NCBI GenBank assembly: GCA_965219665.1
Contig: CBDCOD010000023.1
Location: 56,114-120,113 of the forward strand
Source: Gammaproteobacteria bacterium
Lineage (GTDB): Bacteria; Pseudomonadota; Gammaproteobacteria; CAKMZV01
Direction of reading: 5' to 3'
DNA: 64,000 nt
Below, one piece after another: positions 5,226 to 51,898 of the stretch. The translations under genes were made by a program, and so were the position numbers. The notes under the pieces were generated by a model, which saw only the letters and a program-made list of their open reading frames with translations, was not told where the DNA came from and did not search any database. Every line of letters begins with the position of its first letter. Within the stretch, counting starts at the first letter, position 1.

Positions 5226-5348
5226 TTCTTTATTTGCTGATGTGTTTTGTCGTTAGTTGTATATTCGCGCATAGGCTGCAATCTGTTCAGGTATAATGCC
5301 GCGCCTTATAGTATCCAGTTTAGCGTATTCAAGGAATAATATACCGAT

Positions 5349-5483
5349 ATGAAACGAACTTTTCAGCCCAGTACAATTAAACGCAAGAGAACACACGGTT
5401 TTAGAGCACGTATGTCCACAGTAGCAGGCAGACGCATACTCAATGCGCGTCGCGCAAAAGGTCGTAAAAAATTAAGTGCTTAA
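5349..5483 (+). CDS. rpmH: 50S ribosomal protein L34
   Basis: 44-aa [47 protein letters not shown], below the ORF-track size cutoff, sitting in the canonical position upstream of rnpA. Confidence 0.9.
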
Positions 5484-5517
5484 ACGTTTCTCGCTTTAAC
5501 GATTTACGTTCGTTAGT

Positions 5518-5871
5518 ATGTCATTGGACTACAGTTACCCTCAGAAAATGAGGTTGCTAAAGTCTCAACAATTTGATGCAGTGTTTAGCCAAGCGCGCTC
5601 TTTTAAGGTCAAGGGTTGGACAGTGTTAGCTGTTAATAATGCTGAAGGGCATCCTCGCTTAGGGCTCGTTGTTAGTAAACGCCATCTACCTCAAGCGGTT
5701 TTACGCAATCGTTTCAAACGTCAAGTACGCGAAACCTTTAGACTCATGCAACACACTCTAAAATTTTTAGATTTTGTGGTTATTCCTTCACCTAAGGCAC
5801 GTTATCTGGCGATAAAAGATTTACGCAGTCAGTTAGAGCATGCCTTATTAAACCTTTCTCGTACTTTCTAA
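5518..5871 (+). CDS. rnpA: RNase P protein component
   Basis: Basic 117-aa protein between rpmH and yidC with RnpA-like RLGLVVSKR and RNRFKRQ motifs. Confidence 0.85.
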   Translation: MSLDYSYPQKMRLLKSQQFDAVFSQARSFKVKGWTVLAVNNAEGHPRLGLVVSKRHLPQAVLRNRFKRQVRETFRLMQHTLKFLDFVVIPSPKARYLAIKDLRSQLEHALLNLSRTF

Positions 5872-5873
5872 TT

Positions 5874-7583: not shown

Positions 7584-7619
7584 CCCTTTCCCCAAATTCA
7601 AGACTCACGCGTTGGTATC

Positions 7620-8945: not shown

Positions 8946-8971
8946 GCCTGCCTATCGTGCAGATTGTTTTT

Positions 8972-9580
8972 TTATTGCGCTATCTCAATCATGACTTCAT
9001 TACGTCGTAAAGGCGGAATAGTCCACGGTGGATTATAGAATGCATATTTTGGTGAATCGAGCGCCTTAATATTATTGGCTTTAATAAAAGCACGTAGTTG
9101 CTCTTCATGCTCCTTTAAGCCAGAGCTGGTACCAGAAAACCGAATAGCAGCAAAAGTTTTTGGTGCAAGTTCTTTCAGGCTAATGCGCTCATCGTTAGGC
9201 TTTGGCAAATCAGCGAGTGTATACTCTGAGGGCATTACAAAACTTATTTGCCAATAATTCTCATCAAGTTGCTGTTGAACAGGCGCTGTCATAGCAATCT
9301 CTTTATTCGTTTTTTGTTCAACTGGAGCAGTCATGGCAATTTCCTGATTCACTGTGTTATCACCAAATATATAACCAGCCAGAATACGAAAGCCTGCTCT
9401 GGCAGCCTCATTGCGCTCTCCTTGAGTTCTCACCTCTGCAAGAATCATTGAGTCATAACGTCTGATTTCTATGTTGCCTTCAGCACGTATAACTTGGTAG
9501 TTAGGGATTTCAACATCACTCATGATAGGTCCTGCCAAAACATATCCAACGAGCACAACTCCTAATACAGTTACAAACAT
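8972..9580 (-). CDS. SOUL/HBP-family heme-binding-like protein with signal peptide
   Basis: Hydrophobic N-terminus plus SOUL-like YEVR-type beta-rich sequence. Contains a 14-aa internal tandem duplication. Confidence 0.5.
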   Translation of the reverse strand: MFVTVLGVVLVGYVLAGPIMSDVEIPNYQVIRAEGNIEIRRYDSMILAEVRTQGERNEAARAGFRILAGYIFGDNTVNQEIAMTAPVEQKTNKEIAMTAPVQQQLDENYWQISFVMPSEYTLADLPKPNDERISLKELAPKTFAAIRFSGTSSGLKEHEEQLRAFIKANNIKALDSPKYAFYNPPWTIPPLRRNEVMIEIAQ

Positions 9581-9753
9581 AATCTATTCTCCTTAATTAT
9601 TATCCATTACTAAACATTATATGCTTCAACGGTAATAATCTCATCTCATCTTGTCTTGTTTTTATTTGCTTTAAGCAAGGAATGGATTAGGATATGTTTG
9701 TATCACATTTTTATGGTAGAGATTTTATTTTGCAAGGGTTAGTAGAATCCCAG

Positions 9754-10308
9754 TTACGGGCAGGGAGCGTGTTGCCAGTTTTGCTTTTGTAGGGTAGCAA
9801 GATGCTTGCCCAGTAGGGTAATAACTGCTCTGGAGGTGACAGTAGCTGCTGTTATAGTATCAAAAGCTGTTGCTGCATCACGCATAGTCCAGTCATTATG
9901 AGCTGTTGCTGCATCAAATTGGCTTATCCAAGGACTTTTAGCATGCTCAATTTTATCACCCAGTCCGGGCGTTTCTTTGTGTTCTAAAACGCGAACAGTA
10001 TTTATTTTCCCTGATGTTCTTACGCCTACAAGTAAGGTTATATTTCCTGCATAGCCGTTAGAAGTAGTGATTTGATCGATCCTTCCAATTAGATGACGCT
10101 GATTGCATACTAGCCAAGTGTTTGAATTAAGAGATGTGGCTTGACCTTGGGGAAATATTTGCTTAAGCGTCCGTTCCTGATGCGCAGTCTTTGCCTTTCT
10201 AACAGCTTCTTCCGTGCTTTGGTAAACAACGTAAAGAATGAGTGAAATGCCAGTGGCAATAATCATAAGACTAAGAATAGGGTTTTGGTAGAGTCTCATG
10301 CTAAGCAA
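9754..10308 (-). CDS. rnfG: Rnf electron transport complex subunit G (FMN-binding)
   Basis: N-terminal TM followed by an FMN-binding domain with the covalent-FMN threonine motif SGATVTS (ATVTSRA in this sequence). Last gene of the rnf operon. Confidence 0.8.
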   Translation of the reverse strand: MLSMRLYQNPILSLMIIATGISLILYVVYQSTEEAVRKAKTAHQERTLKQIFPQGQATSLNSNTWLVCNQRHLIGRIDQITTSNGYAGNITLLVGVRTSGKINTVRVLEHKETPGLGDKIEHAKSPWISQFDAATAHNDWTMRDAATAFDTITAATVTSRAVITLLGKHLATLQKQNWQHAPCP

Positions 10309-10344
10309 ATCTCGTGATAATTAAGAGTAGGGATAAGAAATATT

Positions 10345-11325
10345 TTAGGTTCCATAAGGTTTAGGTCTGGTTAAATAGTCAATAAGTGGCGCGCTTAAAT
10401 TGGATAGTAGTACAGCAAAAGCCAAAGCATCAGGGTAGTTGCCCCATGTTCTGATAATATAGAGAAGGGCAGCAACTAAAGCGCCGAAAACAAAGCGCCC
10501 ACGACGCGTTGTAGCACCACTAACTGGGTCTGTAATGATAAAGAAAGCACCAATCATGGTTGAACCATAAAATAGGTGCAATATGGGTGAGGCATAGCGC
10601 TCTGGGTCTAATAAATAGAATAGCAGGCTAATGAGCGTCAGAGTGGTTAGAAAGGCGGTAACGGATTGCCATTTTGCATGGTTTAGCCAAAGCAAAACAA
10701 TTCCTGATAGTAAAAGTATTACATTAAGAACCATCCATAAATAATTTGAATTTCCTTTATAAAACAAATGGTTATTATGTACTTCATCCGAAAACGAATT
10801 TCTAATAATATCTAAAGGTGTTGCTGAAGTTAAGGTGTCGCTTAAAACATCTGTTCCTATCAAAAAATGCCATGCCTGCTGCAAAGAAGTACCGTTGCTG
10901 GCAGGGATTTGCCATTGAGAGAGTTCTGCAGGAAAAGAGATGAGTATCACTGCATAGCCTAACATTGCTGGATTAAAAGGGTTGAAGCCTAAGCCACCAT
11001 ACAAGTGTTTGCCAAAACCTATCGCAAATAGCATACATATAGCTATCATCCAGAACGGCGTTGTAGGTGGTAGGCAAAAGCAGATTAGCAATGCTGTCAA
11101 AATAGCACTACCGTCTAAAGCAGGTTTCAGTGATTGGTTGCGCAGTCTGAGGAATAAAAATTCTAATATCAGCGCCATGCCAATTGCAAAAACGCCCTGA
11201 AGCAATGCAGACCAGCCCCACATATATCCCCAGAAGATATACGCAGGCATTAAGAGTGCAATCACGCTGAACATGGTGCGTTGTACACTACTGCTATTGT
11301 GAATAAAGGGCGCGTTACGACTCAT
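10345..11325 (-). CDS. rnfD: Rnf complex subunit D
   Basis: Polytopic membrane protein with the RnfD/NqrB-like DPVSGATTRRGR motif. Confidence 0.9.
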   Translation of the reverse strand: MSRNAPFIHNSSSVQRTMFSVIALLMPAYIFWGYMWGWSALLQGVFAIGMALILEFLFLRLRNQSLKPALDGSAILTALLICFCLPPTTPFWMIAICMLFAIGFGKHLYGGLGFNPFNPAMLGYAVILISFPAELSQWQIPASNGTSLQQAWHFLIGTDVLSDTLTSATPLDIIRNSFSDEVHNNHLFYKGNSNYLWMVLNVILLLSGIVLLWLNHAKWQSVTAFLTTLTLISLLFYLLDPERYASPILHLFYGSTMIGAFFIITDPVSGATTRRGRFVFGALVAALLYIIRTWGNYPDALAFAVLLSNLSAPLIDYLTRPKPYGT

Positions 11326-12832
11326 TTTTCTTATTCATGCTAGAGGCTTTGCGTTTCTTAGCAGCTTCAATAGCACGTTGGCGAACATCTTGTGGATTAG
11401 ATGATTTTTGTTGCTCGCTTATTGCTTGCTTTAACTGTATGCGCTTAGCCGCTATACGCTTTTCTCGCTCATTCTTAATGTGTTCCAAACGGCTCTCACG
11501 CTCTTCAAAGCGCTGACGTGCAACAGCTGCCAATTTTCTTTCTTGCTGTGCTTCTCTCAATTCTGCTTTGCTCGTTTTATAGACTTGAGTGAGTGGTATT
11601 TTACTGGGGCATACATAATCACAACAGCCACATTCTATACAATCAAACAATCTGTAAGCCAGCATTTGCTGTTCATTTTTTGCTTTAGAAAAATAGAAAA
11701 GTTGCTGTGGTATCAAATGCATAGGGCAGGCGACTTCACATTCTCCACAACGAATGCATGCCTCTTCCTTCCTGCTGTCATCGTGGTAATTGATAATAAT
11801 GCTAGTGGTCGTTGGTAGTATAGGATATTGAAGATTCAGGAGGCTTTTGCCCATCATAAGCCCTCCTGCTATCGTATCACCCTTGGCCTTATAGGAGAGG
11901 ACTTGTAGTAGCGAGGCAATACTTTGTCCAATATGTGCCCAGATCAACTCACTTTTCTGCTGCTCTATATCAATAAGGCTAATTAAACGTTTTTGTGGAG
12001 GTATTCCTGTTACAACGGCTTGAAATACAGCGTAACAAGTAGCAACATTAAAACTGACTATGCCTATTTCTTGTGGGTAGTGCATGCCACTAATCTGTTT
12101 CCCCCAAATGTATTCTATAATTTGCTTTTCGCCACCTATGGGGTAGTAATCAGTGAGCATTTCTATGCGAATACTGACATCCGTTTGTATTGCCTCAGAG
12201 GCAATCTGAAGTGCTTGAATCGCTTGTGCATTATTGTTTTTTATCGCTATGACAATACTGGGGCATTGTGTTGCTTTTGCCAGTAAAAGAATGCCATTAA
12301 GCACATCAGCCGCCTGCTCAATTAAAAGGCCTTCATCACTGCGTACTAAGGGCTCACATTCACAAGCATTTAGAACAATATGTTTTAAGGGTTGTGTAAG
12401 CTTGAGCGCAGCAGGGAATCCTGCCCCACCCATGCCAACAATGCCTGCTTGAGTGATGCGTTCTACTATACTTTCAGGTGCCCAGTTTAGCGCTTGCTCT
12501 ATGGTGACTGTATGCCAAGCTGTGGTAGCATCACTCTTAATAGCATGATTAGGACTGAGAACAATATAAGGTTGCCCCTCTAAAGCAATGTAGGCTTCTA
12601 TACACGCATTGACTGGGCTAATGACGCATCTGTGTCTCTGTAAAGGGTCTATTTGAATGCATTGCCCTACGGTGACTGTGTCCCCTAGTTTAAGAGGTGC
12701 ATCGCAATCTGTTAATAAAGGTATTAGCCATTGTTTAGGTGATGGTATATGTTGAGGAGCACGCAAAGGTTCATTGCTCTTGCTCAAATTCAGTGTAACA
12801 CCACCTTGCATGTTTTTAATCGACTTGAACAT
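11315..12832 (-). CDS. rnfC: Rnf complex subunit C
   Basis: NADH/FMN-binding GMGGAGFP motif, two 4Fe-4S ferredoxin motifs (CIRCGECEVACP, CIECGCCDYVCP) and a lysine-rich C-terminal tail. Confidence 0.9.
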   Translation of the reverse strand: MFKSIKNMQGGVTLNLSKSNEPLRAPQHIPSPKQWLIPLLTDCDAPLKLGDTVTVGQCIQIDPLQRHRCVISPVNACIEAYIALEGQPYIVLSPNHAIKSDATTAWHTVTIEQALNWAPESIVERITQAGIVGMGGAGFPAALKLTQPLKHIVLNACECEPLVRSDEGLLIEQAADVLNGILLLAKATQCPSIVIAIKNNNAQAIQALQIASEAIQTDVSIRIEMLTDYYPIGGEKQIIEYIWGKQISGMHYPQEIGIVSFNVATCYAVFQAVVTGIPPQKRLISLIDIEQQKSELIWAHIGQSIASLLQVLSYKAKGDTIAGGLMMGKSLLNLQYPILPTTTSIIINYHDDSRKEEACIRCGECEVACPMHLIPQQLFYFSKAKNEQQMLAYRLFDCIECGCCDYVCPSKIPLTQVYKTSKAELREAQQERKLAAVARQRFEERESRLEHIKNEREKRIAAKRIQLKQAISEQQKSSNPQDVRQRAIEAAKKRKASSMNKKNES

Positions 12833-13349
12833 AGGCTGAGAATTGTTTATACAAAGGCGTTATTCTTTGTTTAAGTTCCATTTTGATACAGTTAGTAGGG
12901 CAGACTGGAACACACAACTCGCACCCAGTGCATTCTGATGTAATGACTGTATGCATTTGCTTACTGGCACCAAGGATAGCATCTACTGGACAGGCTTTAA
13001 TGCAGAGCAAGCAGCCAATACATTTCTCTTCTTCAATGAAGGCTATCTGATTTTTATCACTTTCTTGTTCTTGCAAACTAATAGCTTCTCTACCTAATAA
13101 TTCGGCAAGTTTTATAACTGTTTGCTGTCCACCTGGTGGACATCGGTTGATGTCTGCTTCTCCATTAGCGATAGCCTTTGCATAAGGGCGGCATCCAGGA
13201 TAGTCACACTGCCCACATTGTGTTTGTGGCAACAGCTGGTCAATTTGATCTACTAATGGGTTATCTTTGCGTGCATAGCGTTTAGCAATCCAATGCAGCA
13301 GCAAGCCCAGTATAGCAGCTAGCAGAAGTAGATAGAGTATGGTCGTCAT
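12816..13349 (-). CDS. rnfB: Rnf complex subunit B
   Basis: N-terminal TM, a CxxCxxxxC cluster (CGQCDYPGC) and two ferredoxin CxxCxxCxxxCP motifs. Confidence 0.9.
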   Translation of the reverse strand: MTTILYLLLLAAILGLLLHWIAKRYARKDNPLVDQIDQLLPQTQCGQCDYPGCRPYAKAIANGEADINRCPPGGQQTVIKLAELLGREAISLQEQESDKNQIAFIEEEKCIGCLLCIKACPVDAILGASKQMHTVITSECTGCELCVPVCPTNCIKMELKQRITPLYKQFSAYVQVD

Positions 13350-18303: not shown

Positions 18304-19065
18304 TCACTGGGATTGTGAATCAAATAGGGCTCTTTGCAGCAGGTAAGGAGAAGTCCAATGCACTAAGTCATCAAAATTATTGGCTGCGATTGTATGCTGA
18401 CGATCTCGTAGCACAAAATGCTCGTCGTTATTCATACCCCATCCCAATAATGTTGCTTCACCACTGTTCTCCATAGAATGTTCATCTCCTGTTGCAGCAC
18501 TTTCACCAACAGATAGCAAAATAAAGGGGGCAGTGTTGGTTAGCTGTGTGGCTGTCCCACTGCAATCATTAGCATTGGTGCATACTATTAAGTCACCAAA
18601 CAGTTGCTCATAACTGGTTAAATTTGATAGTCGCTTCCTGTCAAGCCATAAATTGTTGTTTTCTTCGCTTATCGTGTAGCGAATAGGGCGATTCCAACTA
18701 TCTAATAAAAGGCCCTGTGCATTACGTGCACCGTTGAGAGATAGTGTTGTACTGGGTACAAAGCCGTTAGTGGTGCTGCAATTAGGGGTGGGCATTTCTT
18801 GATAGCTTTCTATGCCGCCAGTTGCAGAAGGACAGGGTAGGCGCTTGTTGGCTATTAAAAACTGTACAATCGTAGTCGCTATATTTTGCAGTTGCTGCTC
18901 TGTTTCAGCGTAATGTGTCTGCCGTTGCTGCTCTAATAGTGGCAATACCACGTGATTACTAAGCACAGCAATGATAAGCAAGACAATAGACAGTTCTAAT
19001 ATGGAAAAACCTGTTTGAAGAGTAAGAGCGTGCTGTTTGAGTGCGGTTGAGCGCTTTTGGTGCAT
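18304..19065 (-). CDS. Prepilin-type (pseudo)pilin with an unusually long leader
   Basis: N-terminal ...LQTGFSILELSIVLLIIAVL has the G|F...E5 prepilin-peptidase cleavage and methylation motif preceded by an 18-aa leader. 253 aa. Confidence 0.65.
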   Translation of the reverse strand: MHQKRSTALKQHALTLQTGFSILELSIVLLIIAVLSNHVVLPLLEQQRQTHYAETEQQLQNIATTIVQFLIANKRLPCPSATGGIESYQEMPTPNCSTTNGFVPSTTLSLNGARNAQGLLLDSWNRPIRYTISEENNNLWLDRKRLSNLTSYEQLFGDLIVCTNANDCSGTATQLTNTAPFILLSVGESAATGDEHSMENSGEATLLGWGMNNDEHFVLRDRQHTIAANNFDDLVHWTSPYLLQRALFDSQSQ

Positions 19066-19087: not shown

Positions 19088-20308
19088 TTAGCAGTTTGCA
19101 AATTGCCAAAGCGTATTTAAGCAAAAATGCTGATCATTGCTTAAGTTTGCTTCTAAATAGTCCTCTACAGATATACTTGGTCGTATTTGGCTTTCTAAGC
19201 GTCTTCCTCCAAAGTGGACGCGTGCAACGTATTGGATACCGTCTATTTCTAAGCAGTTGCCGCCTAAACCACATTGTGGATAACTCTCTAACCACCAGTG
19301 ATCTTTCCACTGTACCCATAAACGACGGTGCGCTTTAACCGTTTTGCTATTGCTATCACTTATATCAATTCTTGAGCCATTGCTTAGTGTAATATTATCA
19401 CAATGTGCGTTTATTCTTGTATTATCTTGTGCCCGAAAAGGGAAACGTCCCAATTGATGACCGCTGCTAGAGCGGTAAGCAGAATTAGAGGGTAGTCTTT
19501 TTATTGTGCTAATTTTTGCTGGCAAGGGCAAACCATTGCTATTTGTTGATGATTGAGCATTTGCAAACGCTCCCAAGCAGAGTACAAGTGCTTCACCCAG
19601 TTCATCCCGTAATTGTGTGAAGCTATGCAGTGTATAAACATCTTTAAAAAGCTCCCTGCTTTTAATTAAATGCACTGAATAACTACTGGTGCTAAGCTCT
19701 AATGGTTGTTGGTTATCTGCTGGTATAACCAGATTAGGTAAGAAACTGCCAACCGTATGATCTGCTCTACAAGGCGTATTATCCCCACGCTGTTTACGCT
19801 TTAAGTTACTGGCATTAGTAGCAACAACTGCCGCTATGCCTGTATTTCCACGGTAGTGTATACGCTCTATCACATCAGCATTATGCAGAGTGTTAGCAGT
19901 TGCCAAGTTAGTCCGTGCATTGTTTGGGACAATATACCAATAGCACTCACCTTGGGCATCAAAAAGAGGCTGCATGCCAATTGAGTACCATGGGATGCGT
20001 GTGACAGACCAATTTGTATTTGCACCTGTGCAATATGATCTTCCGTCCCCTTGATTATTTGAGCCATCACCGCACGGCAAAAAACCATATAAGCCAGTAA
20101 AAGGGTTGTTTGATCTAGAAGTCCTGAGGTGATACGTTCTGGCATAAGAGACTAAATGCCGCGCTATTTTGTGCAATTGGTGGGCATTATGTTGTTTTTT
20201 TTTGTTTTGCAATGGTAAAAGAGAAAGTGATGAGATAGCAATTACTGATAACAGTAAACTCATTACCAAAAATCCTTTTTGATTGCCGTAGTATCTGTAT
20301 TCATTCAT
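19088..20308 (-). CDS. GspK/PilX-like large minor pseudopilin (no Glu+5)
   Basis: N-terminal QKGFLVMSLLLSVIAISSL is a prepilin-like hydrophobic helix lacking E5. Cysteine-rich, 406 aa, adjacent to the pseudopilin gene. Confidence 0.4.
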   Translation of the reverse strand: MNEYRYYGNQKGFLVMSLLLSVIAISSLSLLPLQNKKKQHNAHQLHKIARHLVSYARTYHLRTSRSNNPFTGLYGFLPCGDGSNNQGDGRSYCTGANTNWSVTRIPWYSIGMQPLFDAQGECYWYIVPNNARTNLATANTLHNADVIERIHYRGNTGIAAVVATNASNLKRKQRGDNTPCRADHTVGSFLPNLVIPADNQQPLELSTSSYSVHLIKSRELFKDVYTLHSFTQLRDELGEALVLCLGAFANAQSSTNSNGLPLPAKISTIKRLPSNSAYRSSSGHQLGRFPFRAQDNTRINAHCDNITLSNGSRIDISDSNSKTVKAHRRLWVQWKDHWWLESYPQCGLGGNCLEIDGIQYVARVHFGGRRLESQIRPSISVEDYLEANLSNDQHFCLNTLWQFANC

Positions 20309-20612
20309 GATACTCTATCCATTTGTTTTTTTTCCATTTCCATATACTTCCGTTAACTCTAATTACGCCATGTATTGGGCTTTTATCATTAAGAATAGTA
20401 GTCGAAGGACTGGAGAGTAAGGGGCGATCGACAGCCTCTTTTGTTTGTTTTGTCGTTGTGATTGTTTTTTGTTCTAAATGTTGGCTAACTTGCTTGAATA
20501 ATTGTTGAAAAGGTTGACTTTCAACTGCCAAGGAATCTGTAGTCGTATTTGCTGTTATCAGCAGTAAGGCTCCATGCAAAAAAGGCGATAGAGTAGGGCG
20601 AGTTATCTTCAT
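20301..20612 (-). CDS. Small periplasmic protein, possible PilP/GspC-like secretin-interacting component
   Basis: Signal peptide, then Thr-rich linker and a short beta-rich C-terminus. The call rests mainly on position within the cluster. Confidence 0.3.
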   Translation of the reverse strand: MKITRPTLSPFLHGALLLITANTTTDSLAVESQPFQQLFKQVSQHLEQKTITTTKQTKEAVDRPLLSSPSTTILNDKSPIHGVIRVNGSIWKWKKNKWIEYHE

Positions 20613-20619
20613 AAATCAG

Positions 20620-21024
20620 TCAGTGGTATGTTAGTTCACAATTGGCATTGAGCGCCGCCGGTTCTTTACGCGATACAAATAAACGGCACATATTTAATTT
20701 CAATAAATGCTTGGAGTTAATGAGCTCAGATGCTGCTGTCCAGTATTGGTGCCATGCATGTTCGTTAATTGCAATAAAAGAAAGGGTTACTTTTTTATTA
20801 TGCCGCTCCCGCTTCAATTGCAGGGCAAGCTCATTTTTATGTGCAAGCCTTTGGAGATCATCTAACTGCTTATATAACTCTTGCAAATTAGTTTTTTGTG
20901 GCAATTTTGGACTGATTGGCCTGATGATGGGCTTATCGTTTATAGCATTATGACGCTCAAAATATATAAAATACATCATTGTGCAAATGCATAGACCCAA
21001 TAGTAATGACAGTACGCTATACAT
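20620..21024 (-). CDS. Bitopic membrane protein, possible GspM/PilO-like assembly component
   Basis: N-terminal TM helix followed by a predicted coiled-coil periplasmic region. Position only. Confidence 0.3.
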   Translation of the reverse strand: MYSVLSLLLGLCICTMMYFIYFERHNAINDKPIIRPISPKLPQKTNLQELYKQLDDLQRLAHKNELALQLKRERHNKKVTLSFIAINEHAWHQYWTAASELINSKHLLKLNMCRLFVSRKEPAALNANCELTYH

Positions 21025-21028
21025 ATTT

Positions 21029-21835
21029 CTACCCTTTTGCTTGAAGATTGATTTGTAAAAAAGCGTTTTTTTTGCCTAAATAATCAATAAATAGGGGAGG
21101 ATCAGGAACGAAATATTGCTGCGTAAGCGCAATATGCAATCGATTCCAATCACCAGCTTGCTGACTAAGCGTTTTATCTGCACTAGCCCACTGCAGCTGT
21201 AGCTCCATTTGTTTACCCTTCCATATAAAAGCATGTACTGAAATAGATGGAAATTCATCCAAAATACGCGCTAATTGTCGTATGTGTTTTGTATAGTCCT
21301 TGGGAGTGTAAACGGAAGGAGTTGCAGTTAGAAGTGGGGCAATATGGGCTGAGGATAGAGGCTCTTGCAGAGGTTGAGTATTGATGTAAGTATGCCACTG
21401 ATTTGCACAAAGCCCACTTAGAAAACATAGTAAACCCATCAAGATATAGCAAGCATATCTCATAGTCACGGAAATATTGCTTGTGTCAAAAAGAAATTTT
21501 TTTGAAGGCATAGTGTGCTGCTGTACCAGGTGTTGGTGCTTCTGATTTCGCTGAACCGGTTTAATCGCTAACAACCCCTGTTCATCGGACTCTACTAAGT
21601 ACAAACAATACGGGCTGAAAACACAAGCACTTGAACCATGGATTTGTATACCCATAGCCCAACTAGATACTCTAAGATGCTTAGCTTGTTGCAATTTGCT
21701 TGCCAAGCAGCCTGCAAAAGACCAGCCATGCAGTCTGTGCCAACTGTGTTGAAGATTATCTAAAATGAGAATACCGCTTGGCGGCAGCACACTGTTCGCC
21801 TTGATTTGATGACAAAAATATGTTTTGATGCTCAT
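21029..21835 (-). CDS. Bitopic protein with cytoplasmic N-domain, possible reduced GspL / PilM-N-like component
   Basis: Cytoplasmic domain of about 120 aa, a central TM (MRYACYILMGLLCFLSGLCA) and a periplasmic domain of about 130 aa. The gene overlaps the gspF-like gene, and the ORF start is uncertain. Confidence 0.3.
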   Translation of the reverse strand: MSIKTYFCHQIKANSVLPPSGILILDNLQHSWHRLHGWSFAGCLASKLQQAKHLRVSSWAMGIQIHGSSACVFSPYCLYLVESDEQGLLAIKPVQRNQKHQHLVQQHTMPSKKFLFDTSNISVTMRYACYILMGLLCFLSGLCANQWHTYINTQPLQEPLSSAHIAPLLTATPSVYTPKDYTKHIRQLARILDEFPSISVHAFIWKGKQMELQLQWASADKTLSQQAGDWNRLHIALTQQYFVPDPPLFIDYLGKKNAFLQINLQAKG

Positions 21836-22851
21836 AGCTGATACAAGGGCAGAAGAAAGGTAATAATAAATAGCAATACAAACATGGCAGATATCATGGT
21901 TAATACTGGCTCAACTAAGGGCTCTAACTGCTCTAAGTTGGTATGAACTCGTTGTTCAAAAAGTTGAGCCAATTTTTCCCAAAATAGCGACTGTTTTTGG
22001 GCGGAGTAAAAGGCAGCTGTATAGCGTGTTATTTCCTTGGGCACATCAGAATTCCCTAATATAGCAATAAAATCCTCTCCATTTAGCATACGCTGGCGAA
22101 CTTCTAACCATAATTTACGCTTCTTGGTAGACTTGATAGTGTGGCAAGCAAAATATAGCTGTTTATCCAATTGCATGCTCGTATGTTGCAGTAAACTCAT
22201 GTATCTAAAAAAACGAGCCATTTCAATATTGCTTATCAGGCCCTTGGGGTTAGTGTAAGATACTAGCCATTTAGCACTGTTTATTAGCTTGTGTCGCATA
22301 TGAAAGGTAAGAGCTATAAGTAAAAGGAGAGCAAACACTGCATATTGCAGATTGCTGCTTACCCAGTATGCCATTTGTAAAGCAAAACCAGGTTCTGGTA
22401 TAGCGACTTGTAGGGTAGGTGCTAGCAATAATATTGCAGCCATTAAAGCACAGCTAATTAAACAGAGAACTATTATGGGGTAACGTGCTATCTGCTTAAT
22501 CCGGTTTGTCCACCGTTGCTGCCATTTTAGCCATTTTGCCCATTGCTCAAAATGCGCTGCTAAGGTACCATCTAATTCGCCACTTCTACATAGTTGAATC
22601 AATCCAGGGTCATTGAACCATTGGGTTAGACTTAATGCCTGAGAGAAATCCTGACCGCTAAATAAGCGCTGCTCTATGTTCTGCAATTCTTTCTTCCAAG
22701 CATTATTTTGTATATTGGCGCACACCATAGTCACAGAAGTCATTGGAGTGAGCCCTTGTTTAAGCAGTAAGGCTGTTTCTTCACAAAAAAACAATTGAAA
22801 TTTTGCTTTGTTATGCGGATTTGGTGCGTGCTGAGTGAGTGCTTTAAGCAT
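21832..22851 (-). CDS. GspF/PilC-family inner-membrane platform protein (shortened)
   Basis: T2SSF-like cytoplasmic repeats, three TM segments and the hallmark C-terminal ...LLPLYQL ending. 339 aa against roughly 400 for typical GspF. Confidence 0.7.
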   Translation of the reverse strand: MLKALTQHAPNPHNKAKFQLFFCEETALLLKQGLTPMTSVTMVCANIQNNAWKKELQNIEQRLFSGQDFSQALSLTQWFNDPGLIQLCRSGELDGTLAAHFEQWAKWLKWQQRWTNRIKQIARYPIIVLCLISCALMAAILLLAPTLQVAIPEPGFALQMAYWVSSNLQYAVFALLLLIALTFHMRHKLINSAKWLVSYTNPKGLISNIEMARFFRYMSLLQHTSMQLDKQLYFACHTIKSTKKRKLWLEVRQRMLNGEDFIAILGNSDVPKEITRYTAAFYSAQKQSLFWEKLAQLFEQRVHTNLEQLEPLVEPVLTMISAMFVLLFIITFLLPLYQL

Positions 22852-24403
22852 TTATATCCCCCCCGAATACCCTATCTACCTCAGTTTGAGTGGTGCACTC
22901 TGATAGCACTAAATCTTGTGCAGAATCATGGAGACGCTTGCTCCATGTCAGATCACTCAATTGTGTAGAATGGTGGATATTGTGTGCCATCTCTAACACC
23001 AATACCCTACCATCGTAACCACTTTCAGCGCATTGAGAGCAACCTTTTGATTTACAAACAGTACATGCTTTGCGCAGCAAGCGTTGTGCAATGCACGCAA
23101 GAGATTGTTCAATAAGCACCTTACTATCTACCCCTAAACTTTGCATGCGGTGATAAATGCCTTCAACATCTCCTGCATGCACTGTTGCCAACACTAAATG
23201 GCCTGTCATGCTAGACTTTAAAGCCAATTCAGCTGTTTTAGCATCCCGAATTTCACCTAGCAAAATGACGTCAGGATCTTGTCTTAAAACTGCTTTAAGG
23301 ACATTGTAAAAATCCATACCATATTCAGAGCGCACGTTTATTTGCCTAATGCCTGTCTGACGGTACTCAACTGGATCTTCTAAAGTAATGATATTAAGCT
23401 GTTCATAGTCTAACAAATTAAGTAGGGTATATAAGGTCGTGCTTTTACCGCTACCGGTAGGTCCTGCAATTAAAACGAGCCCAGAGGGTTGTCGCATTAC
23501 GTTAGTAAGTGCTTGTTGTGTGATTGGCGGTAACTGCATATCTTGCAAGTCCAATTTATGGGAATTTGATAGAAAGCGAAGTACAAGATGTTCTCCCGCA
23601 ATGCCTGGCAACAGTGAGAGTCGCACATCAGTATCTGTATCCCCATACTGGAATGAGAAGCGTCCTTCTTGAATGGTATGAATTGATGTACTATCTACAT
23701 TTGCCATGATTTTATAGCGGATACAGAGTGCCTTCCATAAATGGAGATGCATATAGTGCATAGAGCGCAAAACTCCATCAATTCGATAACGAATCAGGCA
23801 GGCATGTTGTTGTGGATCACAGTGTATGTCAGAGGTCTTAAGCATTATTGCCTCATGCAGTAATGCGTAAGCAAGGCGCACAACTAAGTGCTGTTCCTCC
23901 TGTATCACGTTGCGAAGTTGATGCGGATCAGAGCTAATCGTACATAATATAGTGCTTACTTGGTTGTCATTTTGCAGTTGTTTTAGATAGTTTTGAAACT
24001 GCGAGTAGTACACCCAGCTCGTTTTTATGGGATGGGCAAAGTTGATTTTTTCCAATAAGATGTGTAGTGCCTGATCGGCATAAGGTGCCGCCATCGCAAC
24101 AATTAAATGTCCTTCAGGATCAACATATAGTGGTAGTATCAAGTTATTTTTAATCCAGGCTATACCCAGGATATCAGCCCAATCGGGTTGTATGGCAATT
24201 GCATCCTCTGCTTCTAAATACTCCATAGCATAATTCCTGCTAATATAAGCACTCCATTTAGAATGCTCCAGCCAGTTCGCCTTTAGTATAAATTTGACAG
24301 GGTCGTCCTCGGTTAAATTTGCTTGATAAAGTGCAATTTCATATTGAGTTGCTGTTATAACACCCTGATCCAGCAAAGAGGATAATAAGCTATAGTTAGG
24401 CAT
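22844..24403 (-). CDS. GspE/PilB-family secretion ATPase
   Basis: Walker A GPTGSGKSTT, Walker B DPDVILLGEIRD, His box ATVHAGD and a tetracysteine zinc motif CTVCKSKGCSQC. An N1E-like N-terminal domain is present. Confidence 0.9.
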   Translation of the reverse strand: MPNYSLLSSLLDQGVITATQYEIALYQANLTEDDPVKFILKANWLEHSKWSAYISRNYAMEYLEAEDAIAIQPDWADILGIAWIKNNLILPLYVDPEGHLIVAMAAPYADQALHILLEKINFAHPIKTSWVYYSQFQNYLKQLQNDNQVSTILCTISSDPHQLRNVIQEEQHLVVRLAYALLHEAIMLKTSDIHCDPQQHACLIRYRIDGVLRSMHYMHLHLWKALCIRYKIMANVDSTSIHTIQEGRFSFQYGDTDTDVRLSLLPGIAGEHLVLRFLSNSHKLDLQDMQLPPITQQALTNVMRQPSGLVLIAGPTGSGKSTTLYTLLNLLDYEQLNIITLEDPVEYRQTGIRQINVRSEYGMDFYNVLKAVLRQDPDVILLGEIRDAKTAELALKSSMTGHLVLATVHAGDVEGIYHRMQSLGVDSKVLIEQSLACIAQRLLRKACTVCKSKGCSQCAESGYDGRVLVLEMAHNIHHSTQLSDLTWSKRLHDSAQDLVLSECTTQTEVDRVFGGDINA

Positions 24404-24561: not shown

Positions 24562-26013
24562 TTATATTTCTAAAACGGTTGGACGAATGAAAATAACCAA
24601 CTCGGTGTTACGTTTGCCATTTTGCTTATTTCCTAAGGATTGCAAATAAGGTAAATAGGATTTTTGATCTTGTGTGCTCTGCTGTATAAGTCCTGCAATA
24701 ATGGCTATTTCACCCGACTTTACTCTTAAAACAGATTCTAATTCTCTCTCCTGTATTATCGGTATTTCTGAAACAACACCACGATCTGCAAGCAGCGGGT
24801 GAGGGTCTCTTACCACACCAGACATCCGAGATAGTATAGGGCGAATATTTAATGTAACCATACCACTGTGTTCGATAAAAGGGGTAAGTGATAAAATCAA
24901 ACCGACTGGTATAGTATTGGCTTTTGTATTGAAGTTAGTAACAGATGTATTTTGATTTAAAGAAGTTATTGAGTCGATAGTGAAATACACCAAGTTATCA
25001 ACCACTTTAAGTACTGCTGTTTGATTATTGATAACTTGCAATTGAGGTGAAGAAAGCACTTTGCTGCTACCGAATTGGTTAAACCAGCTAATCTGCGTGC
25101 TTAAATCAGCATTGGGTGCATTGATGAAGGTGTTTAATTGACCAGAAATTGATGGTATAACAGGCGTGTTCTGAGATAACGTATTATTCCCTAATACTGC
25201 ATTCCACTGTATTCCTTGTTGATTATCCTCACTAAGTTCAATTTCAATAATTGCAACATCTAAAATAACTTGACGCTTTTGTGTAGCAACGATCTGGCTA
25301 ATATACTGATCAAGTTGGATATGCATGTATTGAGAAGCCAATGCTGTAATCAGTCCTGCTTCAGGATTGACAATCACAGACTCCTTGTTCCCTACTAAAC
25401 GCTCAGTATTGCGTTGTATATCTTCCCAAAATTGATGCTTGAATTGATTATGAATTTCTGTTCCTGCTTTTTTTGTATTCAAAGCTGAGTTAATGTTTTG
25501 GTTAAAGGACAGTGCAGAGGCACTTTGCCTCTGCATATTAAGGATAGGAATGCTATGGCTTTTCCAGTAAGGTGCATTGCTTAAAAACACCACACTATCG
25601 TTGTTAAATTCTGCACGCATATCTATTTGTGCTGCTACCTGATTGAATAATGTACTGAGCGCTACTTTTTTGCCTTGATAGTTAATGGCTTTATCACTCT
25701 GTATAGCTATAGAATAGTTAAAAGACAACCTCTGACTTAAGCCAGTTAATAATGTAGTTAACGGCATATTTTTAATATCTAAATCAACCGTTTCTTGCCA
25801 AATATCATACTGAATCATTGCGCTTTTTTCTGTGTGCGCTTGTGGCTTAGATTGCGCAATAAAGTTATATATGTGAGGCGAGGGTGAAAATACGGGATGA
25901 CGTGTTGCCGTAGTGCCTTCTTCACTACTTTTCTCTTTTTGAGAAGTGCTACATGCTGATAATGCTAAAAACATAACAGCAACCCCTTTTTTTATCCGGA
26001 TACACGTTGCCAT
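24562..26013 (-). CDS. Secretin (GspD/PilQ family), probable lipoprotein
   Basis: C-terminal secretin domain ending ...VPYLQSLGNKQNGKRNTELVIFIRPTVLEI. The ORF-track start is 26055; the start at 26013 (MATCIRIKKGVAVMFLALSAC) gives a signal peptide plus an LSAC lipobox. Confidence 0.8.
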   Translation of the reverse strand: MATCIRIKKGVAVMFLALSACSTSQKEKSSEEGTTATRHPVFSPSPHIYNFIAQSKPQAHTEKSAMIQYDIWQETVDLDIKNMPLTTLLTGLSQRLSFNYSIAIQSDKAINYQGKKVALSTLFNQVAAQIDMRAEFNNDSVVFLSNAPYWKSHSIPILNMQRQSASALSFNQNINSALNTKKAGTEIHNQFKHQFWEDIQRNTERLVGNKESVIVNPEAGLITALASQYMHIQLDQYISQIVATQKRQVILDVAIIEIELSEDNQQGIQWNAVLGNNTLSQNTPVIPSISGQLNTFINAPNADLSTQISWFNQFGSSKVLSSPQLQVINNQTAVLKVVDNLVYFTIDSITSLNQNTSVTNFNTKANTIPVGLILSLTPFIEHSGMVTLNIRPILSRMSGVVRDPHPLLADRGVVSEIPIIQERELESVLRVKSGEIAIIAGLIQQSTQDQKSYLPYLQSLGNKQNGKRNTELVIFIRPTVLEI

Positions 26014-27155
26014 TGATTGCCCCCAATAGATTCGACCACTCCCGTTAATTCCCACTCTAATAATTTGCTTTGAGTGCTCGGAAAGTCATAATTGTTTAAC
26101 TCTAATAATTGCTCGAATGACCATACATCAAAGCCCATTAGTGACAAGAGTGCATCGCTTGTTTCATCAAATTGCGTTGCAGACGCTTGCTGCGTGGCAT
26201 GTTCAAGATCTATAACACGTAGAATATCATTCGCGCAAGTAAGCAGATGTGCTCCTTGTTGGATAATTTTATGACAGCCTGCGCTTACTGGAGAAAGGGT
26301 ACTGCCAGGTAGTGCAAATACTTCTCTCCCTTGCTCTAAGGCTTGTGTTGCTGTGATGAGTGTGCCACTTTTCACTGCTGCTTCAATCACGACTGTTGCC
26401 AGTGAAATGCCACTAATAATGCGATTGCGCGGTGGAAAATTGGCAGAATTCGGGGGAGTAGATAGAGGCACCTCACTAACCAGCGCACCGCCATTTTCTA
26501 ATATAGAGTCAGCTAGTTTGATATGCTGTTTGGGGTAGAGAATGTTGACGCCTGTCCCAAGAATAGCTATTGATGGGGCAGATGTACTCAAGGTGGCTTG
26601 ATGCGCGATGCCATCAATGCCCAGCGCCAATCCACTACAAATCACCCATCCTTTGTTGGCTAATTCCGTAGCTATTTCATGTGCAGAACGCGTTCCCTGT
26701 GCTGTTGGTTTTCGAGTACCTACTATTGAAACCGCATTTTGCTGCAGGCACTCTAATGAACCTCTAACATACAAAACTGGAGGTGGGTCATAGATAGTTT
26801 TAAGCAAAGAGGGGTAATTACTATTATTAAATTCAAGCAAGTGAATTTTTTCTTGTTTGCATTTTTCCAGAGTTAGCTCTATTTTGGAGGCTGCTTGCAG
26901 CCATTTACTGAATAGTCGAGAGTTGTGCTTTTCTAGCCAGAGTGCAAACACATCATGACAGAAAGTGGGTTTTTTCTGCAAATACTGACCAAAGGAGCGG
27001 CTTCCTAATCCTTGGGTTAGCGACCACTGCAAACAAAAATAATCATTCCTATGATTACGCGCAGTAGTGCTTTCAATTTGCTCGTGTTTCATACCGCGCA
27101 CTATAAAAACAATGCATGGACAATCTTGTGGGTCAGTGCTATATAAAATAGACAA
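25992..27155 (-). CDS. dprA: DNA processing protein DprA (Smf)
   Basis: Rossmann-like DprA core: VSIVGTRKPT, LALGIDGIAHQATL, ILGTGVNILYP, FPPRNRIISGIS, KSGTLITATQALEQGREVFALPG. Confidence 0.9.
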   Translation of the reverse strand: MSILYSTDPQDCPCIVFIVRGMKHEQIESTTARNHRNDYFCLQWSLTQGLGSRSFGQYLQKKPTFCHDVFALWLEKHNSRLFSKWLQAASKIELTLEKCKQEKIHLLEFNNSNYPSLLKTIYDPPPVLYVRGSLECLQQNAVSIVGTRKPTAQGTRSAHEIATELANKGWVICSGLALGIDGIAHQATLSTSAPSIAILGTGVNILYPKQHIKLADSILENGGALVSEVPLSTPPNSANFPPRNRIISGISLATVVIEAAVKSGTLITATQALEQGREVFALPGSTLSPVSAGCHKIIQQGAHLLTCANDILRVIDLEHATQQASATQFDETSDALLSLMGFDVWSFEQLLELNNYDFPSTQSKLLEWELTGVVESIGGNQWQRVSG

Positions 27156-50337: not shown

Positions 50338-51510
50338 ATGACAACAGTTGGCATTGACTCTATAGCACTATATACTCCTTCTTTTTATATGGACTTGGCA
50401 GAACTTGCAACAGTGCATAATTGCCCTAAAGATAAATATTATTCAGGCATAGGACAAGAGCGCATGAGCGTCCTACCTCCAGATGAAGATGCGGTAACTT
50501 TGGCCGCAAATGCTGCAAACATAACACTTTGCGGTGAAGACCTGAGTAAAATAAAGGCGGTGCTGTTTGCAACTGAAACAAGTGTTGACCAATCAAAATC
50601 TGCAGGCGTTTTCCTACACCAACTCCTCAATTTGCCAGATGATTGCCGCATTATTGAAATGAAACAGGCTTGCTATAGTAGCACATTTGCCTTGCAAACT
50701 GCCCGTATGATGGTACAAGCCAATCCCGAAAGCAAAGTGCTCGTTATTGGATCTGATAATGCGCGTTACACGCTAAATACTCCTGGAGAAGCCACTCAAG
50801 GATGTGGGGCCGTTGCTATGCTGGTTAGCAGTGATCCGCGTATTTTACAACTCAATGATCAATCAGCAGTATACAGTAGCCATACTATGGATTTTTGGCG
50901 ACCTAACTACCTAAACTCAGCTATTGTAGATGGCAAATATTCTACAAAAATTTATTTATCTGCCCTTAAAGAGTGCTGGAAGCGATACCACTCTCTTTCA
51001 GGTAGGTTGCATGAGATTAGTTATCTTGTATTTCATCTTCCATTTACACGCATAGCTGAGAAGGCATTGAAAATTTTATTTAGTGGGGACAAAACCAAAT
51101 TACAGGATAGTTTAGAGCGTGCCAAATCCAGTTTAGTGTACAACCGCTTAGTCGGAAACTCCTACACAGCCTCTCTTTACATAGCGCTCTGCTCCTTGTT
51201 GGATAACACTGATACAGACCTAAGTTACGAGCAAATTGCATTGTTTAGTTATGGTTCTGGCTTTACAGCAGAGCTTTTCACAGGTACGCTGGTACAAGGC
51301 TATAAGGAGCACCTTCATGCCGAGCAGCACCGCGATATTTTACAGAAACGTAAAGCTCTAAGTTACGAAGAATATTTGCATTTTTACAATTATCAACTTC
51401 CTGAAAGTGGTGAAGAACATACCATTAAATCTTATACAAAAGGTCGTTTTAGATTAGCAGGAGTTAACAACCACAAGCGCATATATGAACAGAGTAAACA
51501 TTATGAATAA
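50338..51510 (+). CDS. mvaS: Hydroxymethylglutaryl-CoA synthase family protein
   Basis: Catalytic triad context: [10 protein letters not shown] (Cys), [21 protein letters not shown] (His), YTASLYIAL and FSYGSG match bacterial HMGS. Confidence 0.8.
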
Positions 51511-51898
51511 AACACAAAAATTACATCAAAAGCAGAAAGGATTTACGCTAATAGAAATTATGGTCGTGGTGGTCATTCTTGGTATTTTAGCTACCATTGT
51601 GGTGCCTAAAATTCTGGATAGACCTGATGAAGCACGCGTTCAAAAAGCCAGGCAAGATATCCGTGCTTTCGAAGGTGCCCTCAGTTTATACAAATTGGAT
51701 AATTTTTCTTACCCGGATACCGGAGAAGGTTTAGGAGCATTGCAAGGGCGCTATATGGAACGCATACCAAATGATCCTTGGGGAAATGAATACCAGTACA
51801 TCAGCCCAGGAACCTCCGGCAGTTACGACATCTATTCCTTCGGCGCAGATGGCACTCCTGGTGGTGATGGTGTCAATGCAGACATTGGTAACCTTTAA
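51503..51898 (+). CDS. gspG: Type II secretion major pseudopilin GspG
   Basis: [25 protein letters not shown] prepilin motif and a GspG core ([33 protein letters not shown]). The ORF track starts at an upstream Met at 51485. Confidence 0.85.

What the first reader, a model, noticed from the sequence alone, without database searches (positions are those of the whole stretch)
20301..21835. Three consecutive unassignable ORFs (268, 134 and 103 aa) where GspL/M/C or PilM-N/O/P would be expected
Their topologies mimic assembly-platform components: a cytoplasmic domain plus one TM plus a periplasmic domain; a TM plus coiled-coil; and a signal peptide plus small beta domain. Each is far smaller than canonical GspL (about 400 aa), GspM/PilO (about 160-200 aa) or PilP/GspC, and shows no motif I can recognise. 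They may be a new, miniaturised inner-membrane sub-complex.
Basis: inference. Interest (0 to 1): 0.6.

Follow-up and report, generated by a model that had tools for sequence, protein, structure and literature searches.

The report
Shrunken pilus-machine alignment proteins
The three unnamed genes are real. They are cut-down, fast-evolving versions of the membrane proteins that connect the motor of a pilus-type machine to its outer-membrane pore, so they are a reduced variant of a known kind of part, not a new kind of complex.

Summary
The three ORFs exist as described, on the minus strand (268, 134 and 103 aa). They lie in a tightly packed operon: dprA, MshL-type secretin, PilB/GspE ATPase, short PilC/GspF, A, B, C, a GspK-like 406-aa protein, and a 253-aa pseudopilin. 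None of the three matches Pfam, NCBIfam, PHROGs or PDB sequences.

The same nine-gene operon occurs in two roughly 2.1-Mb Gammaproteobacteria MAG chromosomes. There A and B are under purifying selection (dN/dS about 0.15), and C more weakly (0.54).

The conserved 406-aa gene served as a marker and recovered more than 40 metagenomic loci of a larger, MSHA-related system. In these, full-size proteins occupy the same three slots (medians 521, 208 and 153 aa). Profile comparisons and shared motifs link each window ORF to its own slot.

An AlphaFold model of a full-size A protein has a two-lobed actin-like cytoplasmic domain, one TM helix and a periplasmic alpha/beta domain. Its best Foldseek hits are GspL and PilM.

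So A, B and C are most likely reduced counterparts of GspL/MshI, GspM/MshJ and PilP/MshK. The "miniaturised" reading is supported. "New sub-complex" is overstated.

Two things remain unassigned: the window protein's own model is poor, and so is its 120-aa cytoplasmic domain.

The parts
21029..21835 (-). orfA, 268 aa. About 120 aa cytoplasmic, one TM (aa ~121-145), about 120 aa periplasmic. Reduced counterpart of the ~520-aa family-A protein (GspL / PilM-PilN-fusion type).
   Evidence: ORF and TM. Only distant homologue is P0016, which lies in a syntenic operon. hhalign against family A: prob 61%, E 8e-5, aa 160-225 ~ 345-419. hhalign against PilN/MshI2: E 3e-3. AF2 gives alpha-beta-beta-alpha at aa 178-238 with pLDDT 60-75. 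The cytoplasmic part is unassigned.
20620..21024 (-). orfB, 134 aa. N-terminal TM (aa 4-22), a short helical linker and a periplasmic domain of about 80 aa. Reduced counterpart of the ~208-aa family-B protein (GspM/PilO/MshJ-like).
   Evidence: 32% identical to the L001 orthologue over the C-terminal 80 aa. hhalign B-B: prob 44%, E 2e-4. It keeps the QxLDxL motif (= RLDWIE), the NEH motif (= LLHE) and both conserved Cys of family B.
20301..20612 (-). orfC, 103 aa. Weak signal peptide, a conserved N-terminal motif, a polar linker and a tiny C-terminal beta-hairpin. Truncated counterpart of the ~153-aa family-C protein (MshK/PilP-like).
   Evidence: Occupies the same slot in L001/L003 and in 33 canonical loci. 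Motifs FQQLFKQVSQHLEQ ~ LGRLFFTPEQRxQLD and GVIRVNGS..W ~ NGIVxRxGGxxTVWING. Profile scores are weak: E 0.03-0.1.
21832..22851 (-). Short PilC/GspF/MshG-type inner-membrane platform protein, 339 aa (family median 400).
   Evidence: Pfam T2SSF 1e-24. NCBIfam HofC/GspF/ComGB. 33% identical to L001.
22844..24403 (-). PilB/GspE/MshE-type assembly ATPase, 519 aa (family median 577).
   Evidence: Pfam T2SSE 1e-93, with a weak MshEN match. NCBIfam PilB/GspE.
24562..26055 (-). MshL-type secretin. The likely true start is the ATG at 26013, which gives a lipoprotein-type signal (…FLALSAC).
   Evidence: Pfam Secretin 6e-27. TIGR02519 MshL 9e-55, below its cutoff. Sequence read.
25992..27155 (-). dprA (DNA-processing protein A). 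It overlaps the secretin start, and the same linkage is kept in L001/L003.
   Evidence: Pfam DNA_processg_A 2e-77. TIGR00732 above cutoff. Synteny.
19088..20308 (-). orfD, 406 aa. GspK-like prepilin leader without Glu5 and a WxxWKDHW motif. Marker of the system family.
   Evidence: More than 466 metagenomic matches. N-terminus against GspK: prob 37% over 20 residues. No Pfam or NCBIfam hit.
18304..19065 (-). orfE, 253-aa pseudopilin with a G|FSILE class-III signal.
   Evidence: TIGR02532 above cutoff; weak GspG/GspH matches. Homologues in 70 loci.
51485..51898 (+). Orphan GspG-type major pseudopilin, 137 aa. A possible filament subunit for this machine, but the link is unproven.
   Evidence: tblastn with E. 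coli GspG: 47% identity, E 4e-35. Pfam T2SSG 1e-31 and N_methyl 1e-10.

Best explanation
The three ORFs are functional, co-transcribed genes. They encode a size-reduced inner-membrane/periplasmic alignment module of an MSHA-related type IV filament machine.

- A is a bitopic protein. Its TM helix and periplasmic alpha/beta domain correspond to PilN and to the periplasmic part of GspL. Its full-size relatives also carry an actin-like GspL/PilM-type cytoplasmic domain.
- B is a PilO/GspM/MshJ-type partner: an N-terminal TM helix plus a small periplasmic domain that probably carries a disulfide.
- C is a secreted MshK/PilP-type connector, reduced to an N-terminal docking motif and a beta-hairpin.

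Inferred mechanism: A and B pair through their periplasmic domains. The cytoplasmic end of A contacts the ATPase and platform. C bridges A and B to the lipoprotein secretin. Together they line up the motor with the outer-membrane pore so that pseudopilins (orfE, orfD and perhaps the orphan GspG) can be assembled.

Shown: the genes are real and conserved, they are orthologous by synteny plus profile or motif evidence, and the full-size A protein has a GspL/PilM-like fold. Inferred: the interactions and the function. The whole machine is reduced in this lineage: MshM and MshN were not detected in the window or in the L001/L003 loci, and every component is shorter.
For: Operon packing.

The same nine-gene operon occurs in L001/L003, with identities of 47% (DprA), 44% (secretin), 43% (ATPase), 33% (PilC), 22% (A), 32% (B), about 0% (C), 35% (D) and 40% (E).

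Purifying selection between L001 and L003: A 0.16, B 0.14, C 0.54.

Canonical loci have the order MshM, MshL, MshN, MshE, MshG, A(521), B(208), C(153), D, E. In 42 of 77 loci A, B and D are collinear.

hhalign of the window clade against each family: A-A prob 61% (E 8e-5) and B-B prob 44% (E 2e-4). All cross pairs are below 2%.

Retained motifs, including both conserved Cys in B and the motifs in C.

AF2 model of full-size A: two beta-beta-beta-alpha-beta-alpha lobes, a long TM/coil helix and a periplasmic alpha-beta-beta-alpha-beta-beta domain.

Foldseek top hits for that model: GspL cytoplasmic domain 4pht (E 3.9e-6, prob 1.00), PilM 5eou, EpsL 1yf5 and FtsA.

The best reference partner of each family is the expected one: A-MshI1 E 1e-3, A-PilN E 5e-3, window A-PilN E 3e-3, B-MshJ E 0.017, C-MshK E 0.045. 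Family B also resembles the TM-plus-periplasmic part of A (prob 12.8%).
Against: - No Pfam, NCBIfam or PDB-sequence match for A, B or C, even with family profiles or across all family members.
- The full-size A model has only medium confidence (pLDDT 60, pTM 0.32), and its Foldseek TM-scores are low (0.15-0.30).
- The window A model is poor (pLDDT 41.5) and has no significant fold hit.
- The cytoplasmic 120 aa of window A shows no profile similarity to the actin-like domain (prob 0.2%).
- The links of B and C to MshJ and MshK are individually non-significant.
- C has almost no sequence conservation even between the two reduced lineages.
- No interaction was tested.
Confidence: 0.7

Rival explanations
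1. The ORFs are decaying remnants. In a reduced genome the alignment proteins have been truncated and no longer work, or the whole machine is being lost.
For: Every component is shorter than the family median. MshM and MshN were not detected. C is barely conserved. A, B and C change faster than the ATPase and PilC between sister strains.
Against: There are no frameshifts or stops. Lengths are identical in the sister strain. The same reduced architecture is kept in a lineage that diverged to 22-47% identity. dN/dS is 0.14-0.16 for A and B, and the indels in C are in frame. Core motifs and both Cys are retained.
Confidence: 0.12
2. They are lineage-specific accessory proteins unrelated in fold to GspL/M/C or PilN/O/P, for example competence-specific factors recruited together with dprA. 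On this view the positional match to the A/B/C slots is replacement, not descent.
For: No family-model hits. The cytoplasmic domain of A is unassignable. The window A model gave no fold hit. The C-C profile score is insignificant.
Against: The A-A and B-B profile matches are slot-specific and collinear. Motifs and both Cys are conserved. TM topology is the same as in the full-size proteins.
Confidence: 0.1
3. They are minor pilins, like ComGD to ComGG that follow ComGB in Gram-positive competence operons.
For: The PilC-like protein matches ComGB end to end. The three small genes directly follow it, and dprA lies upstream.
Against: None has a class-III (G|FxxxE) signal. The TM of A is in the middle of the protein, B starts with a TM segment that lacks the cleavage motif, and C has a type-I-like signal. 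The real prepilin-type proteins are orfD and orfE.
Confidence: 0.02

Closest known systems
MSHA pilus biogenesis proteins MshI (MshI1 + MshI2/PilN), MshJ and MshK (Vibrio, Aeromonas, Legionella)
   Same: Both systems have an MshL-type lipoprotein secretin and an MshE/MshG-type motor. Both have three proteins with the same topologies and similar sizes: Legionella 312+206, 241 and 115 aa; Aeromonas 291+197, 215 and 121 aa. The best, though weak, profile partner of each family is the matching Msh protein. The family-C motif LxLNGIVxRxGGxRTVWING resembles MshK's LKLQSIIIGHGKRVALINN (by eye).
   Different: Here the module lies after the platform gene, not before the secretin. The PilM-like and PilN-like parts are fused in one protein. 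No Pfam PilN, PilM_2 or T2SSM_b match was found. MshM and MshN were not detected in the window or in the L001/L003 loci. The downstream pilin set is only a GspK-like protein and one pseudopilin.
Type II secretion GspL, GspM and GspC
   Same: GspL has the same architecture: an actin-like cytoplasmic domain, one TM helix and a periplasmic ferredoxin-like domain. The model of full-size A hits GspL cytoplasmic domains first. The L-like gene is followed by an M-like gene. orfD has a GspK-type leader. An orphan GspG lies in the window.
   Different: No sequence-model match to T2SSL, GspL_C, T2SSM or T2SSC, apart from one family-B member at 2e-4, below cutoff. C has a cleavable signal, not a TM anchor plus PDZ domain. 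The secretin is MshL-type, not GspD-type. Window A keeps only 120 cytoplasmic residues.
Type IVa pilus PilM/PilN/PilO/PilP, including E. coli HofMNOP (DNA utilisation)
   Same: The alignment sub-complex logic is the same. PilM is the second-best fold hit. Window A matches PilN profiles at E 3e-3. HofO (146 aa) and HofP (134 aa) show that small versions exist. Linkage to DNA uptake is plausible in both.
   Different: There is no separate PilM gene. C is not an obvious lipoprotein. The gene order differs: there the genes lie upstream of the secretin, here downstream of the platform gene.

Membership tests
GspL / PilM-PilN fusion (MshI-type) alignment protein | Cytoplasmic actin-like (ASKHA) domain | tested here: inconclusive
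   The full-size orthologue models with two beta-beta-beta-alpha-beta-alpha lobes, and its top Foldseek hits are GspL and PilM. The window protein's 120-aa cytoplasmic part has pLDDT 23-45 and no profile similarity.
GspL / PilM-PilN fusion (MshI-type) alignment protein | Single TM helix followed by a periplasmic ferredoxin-like (alpha-beta-beta) domain | tested here: met
   TM at aa 121-145. AF2 gives alpha-beta-beta-alpha at aa 178-238 with pLDDT 60-75. hhalign to the family-A periplasmic domain E 8e-5 and to PilN E 3e-3. The fold hits for this small piece were not significant.
GspL / PilM-PilN fusion (MshI-type) alignment protein | Match to curated sequence models (Pfam T2SSL, GspL_C, PilM_2, PilN; NCBIfam) | tested here: not met
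   No hits for the window protein or for 34 full-size members.
GspL / PilM-PilN fusion (MshI-type) alignment protein | Binding of the assembly ATPase N-terminal domain | not testable with these tools
   No multimer prediction or experiment was available.
GspM / PilO / MshJ | N-terminal TM helix, helical linker and small periplasmic alpha/beta domain | tested here: inconclusive
   TM at aa 4-22. Family B resembles the TM-plus-periplasmic part of family A (prob 12.8%). One member gives a weak GspL_C match, 2e-4. No structure could be predicted for B.
GspM / PilO / MshJ | Match to Pfam T2SSM, T2SSM_b or PilO | tested here: not met
   No hits for the window protein or for 44 family-B members.
PilP / MshK / GspC HR-domain connector | Exported protein with a beta-sandwich HR-type domain | tested here: inconclusive
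   Signal peptides are clear in family C and in L001, and weak in the window. There is motif-level resemblance to MshK, and hhalign gives E 0.045. The window protein keeps only about 20 residues of this domain. No structure is available.
MSHA-type type IV filament system (TXSScan/MacSyFinder definition in PMC6668835: mshA, mshE, mshG, mshL, mshM mandatory) | MshL-type secretin, MshE and MshG present | tested here: met
   TIGR02519 is the best model for the secretin (9e-55, below cutoff). ATPase and platform genes are present. Canonical relatives score above the MshL cutoff and carry the MshE c-di-GMP motif.
MSHA-type type IV filament system (TXSScan/MacSyFinder definition in PMC6668835: mshA, mshE, mshG, mshL, mshM mandatory) | MshM (ExeA-like ATPase) present | tested here: not met
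   No MshM or MshN match in the window by tblastn and none detected in L001/L003. Both are present in the canonical loci.
A-B-C-D-E module family defined here by synteny | Order platform gene, A, B, C, D (WKDHW protein), E (pseudopilin), with slot-specific profile similarity | tested here: met

The most novel reading that the evidence does not exclude
The operon is an MSHA-derived type IV filament machine, shrunk in every part, that has been fused to dprA and serves as the DNA-uptake (competence) pilus of a reduced-genome gammaproteobacterial lineage. On this reading its A/B/C proteins define a near-minimal alignment sub-complex: a PilN-like protein with a short novel cytoplasmic head in place of the actin-like domain, a PilO-like core without the coiled coil, and a connector reduced to a docking motif plus one hairpin.
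Probability: 0.25. Interest if true: 0.6.

Novelty: new variant of a known kind. Interest (0 to 1): 0.4.

Why it matters
The result gives a likely function to three orphan genes. It also shows that a five-gene module (A to E) lacks any Pfam or NCBIfam model even though its marker gene, orfD, gave more than 466 matches in metagenomes, so these proteins would go unnamed by those libraries.

The reduced clade is a natural deletion series. It shows which parts of the alignment proteins can be lost (coiled coil, most of the actin-like domain, most of the connector's beta domain) and which cannot (TM helix, the first alpha-beta unit, the Cys pair, the N-terminal motif of C).

The conserved fusion to dprA suggests that an MSHA-type machine may act in DNA uptake. 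That can be tested.

Tried and rejected
- Direct searches with the window proteins led nowhere. For the 268-aa protein, the word-indexed search found only its own cluster. The exhaustive search found one true distant homologue, P0016, and two spurious repeat-protein hits, P0014 and P0015.
- The PilC search was set too strict (1e-10) and returned only the query itself.
- The first genome scan, with the ATPase, found nothing.
- Exact look-up of the 268-aa gene's contig failed.
- PDB sequence searches with the single proteins and with profiles of families A, B and C gave only coiled-coil or chance hits.
- Pfam scans of all members of families A and B gave no recurrent family.
- A concatenated A+B+C profile was used to collect homologues for all three families at once. 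It returned only 11 family-A proteins because of the candidate cap, so B and C could not be given alignments for structure prediction.
- Profile comparisons against single E. coli sequences (HofMNOP, GspL/M/C) were uninformative.
- tblastn of family A against plasmids gave no match.
- The minor-pilin reading was rejected because none of the three has a class-III signal.
- MAFFT placed the cytoplasmic part of window A against family-A residues ~112-212. A dedicated profile comparison did not support this, so it is not claimed.
Full report
**Observation.** The minus strand carries ORFs of 268 aa (21029-21835, here A), 134 aa (20620-21024, B) and 103 aa (20301-20612, C). They belong to a run of genes that overlap or lie 4-8 nt apart:
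- dprA (25992-27155).
- An MshL-type secretin (24562-26055). Its probable start is the ATG at 26013, which gives a lipobox LSAC.
- A PilB/GspE-type ATPase (22844-24403).
- A short PilC/GspF-type platform protein of 339 aa (21832-22851).
- A, B and C.
- A 406-aa protein (D, 19088-20308).
- A 253-aa pseudopilin with a G|FSILE signal (E, 18304-19065).

The flanks hold housekeeping genes: rnf, metG, a thioredoxin-like gene and mfd.

A has one TM segment at about aa 121-145. B has an N-terminal TM at aa 4-22. C has only a weak N-terminal hydrophobic stretch. None of A, B, C or D has a significant match in Pfam, NCBIfam, PHROGs or PDB sequences.

**Are they genes?** Yes.
- A sister strain in the protein collection has all three at identical lengths, with 5/268, 4/134 and 5/103 substitutions. 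PilC has 1/339 and the ATPase 3/519.
- An exhaustive phmmer search with A found one true distant homologue, P0016 (290 aa, 22% identity, same topology), and two spurious repeat proteins.
- P0016 lies on a 2.06-Mb Gammaproteobacteria MAG chromosome (OZ255843.1). The operon there is identical in order: dprA, secretin, ATPase, PilC(338), 290, 139, 115, 425, 247. A sister MAG (OZ255827.1) has the same operon.
- Identity to the window proteins falls from 47% (DprA) to 44% (secretin), 43% (ATPase) and 33% (PilC). It is 22% for A, 32% for B over its C-terminal part, and undetectable for C. D is 35% and E 40%.
- Between the two MAGs dN/dS is 0.16 for A, 0.14 for B and 0.54 for C. In C both ends are conserved and the linker has in-frame indels.

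**The larger family.** D has a strongly conserved WxxWKDHW motif and no Pfam model, so I used it as a marker. It recovered three further genome loci and more than 466 metagenomic matches, of which 80 loci were kept.

Their common order is:
- an MshM-like ExeA-type ATPase;
- an MshL secretin, above the TIGR02519 cutoff;
- an MshN-like TPR protein;
- an MshE-type ATPase with the c-di-GMP motif;
- MshG/PilC (400 aa);
- A (median 521 aa);
- B (median 208 aa);
- C (median 153 aa);
- D (median 500 aa);
- E (median 263 aa).

In 42 of 77 loci A, B and D are collinear.

The full-size proteins look like this:
- A has about 300 cytoplasmic residues, one TM helix near residue 305 and about 195 periplasmic residues.
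- B has an N-terminal TM, a long helical segment and a domain with two conserved Cys.
- C has a signal peptide, the motif LGRLFFTPEQRxQLD, a variable linker and a small beta domain (NGIVxRxGGxxTVWING … KVGQ).

These full-size proteins also have no Pfam, NCBIfam or PDB-sequence matches, either singly or as profiles. One B member hits GspL_C at 2e-4, below cutoff.

**Linking the window ORFs to the family.** Profile-profile comparison of the reduced clade against each family gives A-A prob 61% (E 8e-5; window aa 160-225 against family positions 345-419) and B-B prob 44% (E 2e-4). All cross pairs are below 2%. C-C is weak (HMM searches agree).

Adding the reduced sequences to the family alignments shows what each one keeps:
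- B keeps the TM helix, a QxLDxL version of the RLDWIE motif, an NEH version of LLHE and both conserved Cys. It has lost about 45 residues of the helical linker and some loops.
- C keeps a degenerate N-terminal motif (FQQLFKQVSQHLEQ) and the first hairpin of the beta domain (GVIRVNGS..W), and ends there.

The cytoplasmic 120 residues of A could not be related to the family's cytoplasmic domain (prob 0.2%). A MAFFT placement against positions ~112-212 is therefore not relied on.

**What the module is.** Eleven full-size A proteins were obtained and used for AlphaFold2. The model has mean pLDDT 60 and pTM 0.32. It shows:
- two beta-beta-beta-alpha-beta-alpha lobes in residues 1-260;
- a long helix at 291-364 that spans the membrane;
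- a periplasmic alpha-beta-beta-alpha-beta-beta domain.

Foldseek against the PDB ranks the GspL cytoplasmic domain first (4pht, E 3.9e-6, prob 1.00), followed by PilM, EpsL and FtsA. TM-scores are low (0.15-0.30), as expected for a medium-confidence multidomain model.

The window A protein, modelled with 14 sequences, gave pLDDT 41.5. Only aa 178-238 (alpha-beta-beta-alpha) reached 60-75. Foldseek found nothing significant for it, and the 60-residue matches are generic ferredoxin-like or ACT-like domains.

Reference Msh proteins came from annotated Legionella and unannotated Aeromonas MSHA loci. The best partner of each family is the expected one: A-MshI1 E 1e-3, A-PilN/MshI2 E 5e-3, window A-PilN E 3e-3, B-MshJ E 0.017, C-MshK E 0.045. 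Each of these is weak on its own. Family B also resembles the TM-plus-periplasmic part of family A (prob 12.8%), which fits a PilN/PilO-type paralogous pair.

From established knowledge: GspL equals PilM plus PilN in architecture, GspM and PilO are its partners, and PilP or GspC connects to the secretin.

**Interpretation.** A, B and C are most likely the alignment sub-complex of this machine in reduced form. In this lineage the whole machine is reduced:

| Component | Window | Family median |
|---|---|---|
| Secretin | about 483 aa | 582 aa |
| ATPase | 519 aa | 577 aa |
| Platform (PilC) | 339 aa | 400 aa |
| A | 268 aa | 521 aa |
| B | 134 aa | 208 aa |
| C | 103 aa | 153 aa |
| D | 406 aa | 500 aa |

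MshM and MshN were not detected in the window or in the L001/L003 loci. The sizes of B and C are only modestly below known small homologues: HofO 146 aa, HofP 134 aa, GspM 153 aa and MshK 115-121 aa.

The function of the machine is unknown. The dprA linkage is specific to the reduced clade (3 of 86 loci) and is kept across deep divergence, which suggests a role in DNA uptake. That is inference only.

**Limits.**
- Two fold libraries were unavailable.
- No interfaces were tested.
- Membership in the curated GspL/GspM/PilN/PilO/PilP families fails at the sequence-model level. The claim is therefore 'works like, and probably descends from', not 'is a member of'.

Noticed in passing
window 25992-27155 (-), overlapping the secretin start at 26013/26055: dprA is joined to the head of the filament operon. 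The same dprA-secretin junction is kept in L001/L003, which are about 45% identical in protein sequence, but dprA was not found in any of the other loci. This suggests a link to DNA uptake that is specific to the reduced clade.
   Followed up: partly
window 51485-51898 (+): An orphan GspG-type major pseudopilin (137 aa, 47% identical to E. coli GspG, Pfam T2SSG 1e-31) lies between an HMG-CoA-synthase-like gene and ilvB-type genes. No other T2SS gene and no prepilin peptidase was found in the window. It may be the filament subunit of the operon 30 kb away.
   Followed up: partly
window 19088-20308 (-); loci L001-L086: orfD belongs to a large family with no Pfam or NCBIfam model (more than 466 metagenomic matches). 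It has an invariant WxxWKDHW motif, many conserved Cys and a GspK-like prepilin leader (QRGAAL…) that lacks Glu5. It is probably a tip-type minor pseudopilin.
   Followed up: partly
L053 (BeggDRAFT_10018) 5270-13317; L058: In a Beggiatoa draft contig the A-B-C-D-E module occurs without an adjacent ATPase, platform gene or secretin, and a ParA/MinD-like gene is inserted between C and D. L058 and L030 carry three E-type pilin genes in a row.
   Followed up: no
window 22844-24403 (-) versus L004 4295-6034: ATPases of the canonical family match the MshE c-di-GMP-binding motif model (NF053729, 1e-18). The window ATPase gives only a weak MshEN Pfam match (1.2e-4, below cutoff), and by eye its N-terminus lacks the leading RLG. 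c-di-GMP control may have been lost in the reduced clade.
   Followed up: no
search result, (P0014, P0015): Two long eukaryote-like tandem-repeat proteins scored E 1e-18 and 1e-12 against the 268-aa query through 8-12 summed short stretches. These are repeat-inflated false positives, not homologues.
   Followed up: yes
L005 1743-3524: One orfD homologue carries a long (GGPP)n-type low-complexity insertion in the variable middle region of the protein.
   Followed up: no
L090 (NZ_AP026896.1): A 4.9-Mb Aeromonas caviae record is filed as a plasmid in PLSDB and carries almost no annotation. It is evidently a chromosome. It contains a canonical mshI1-I2-J-K-L-M-N-E-G locus, which was used here as a reference.
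   Followed up: partly
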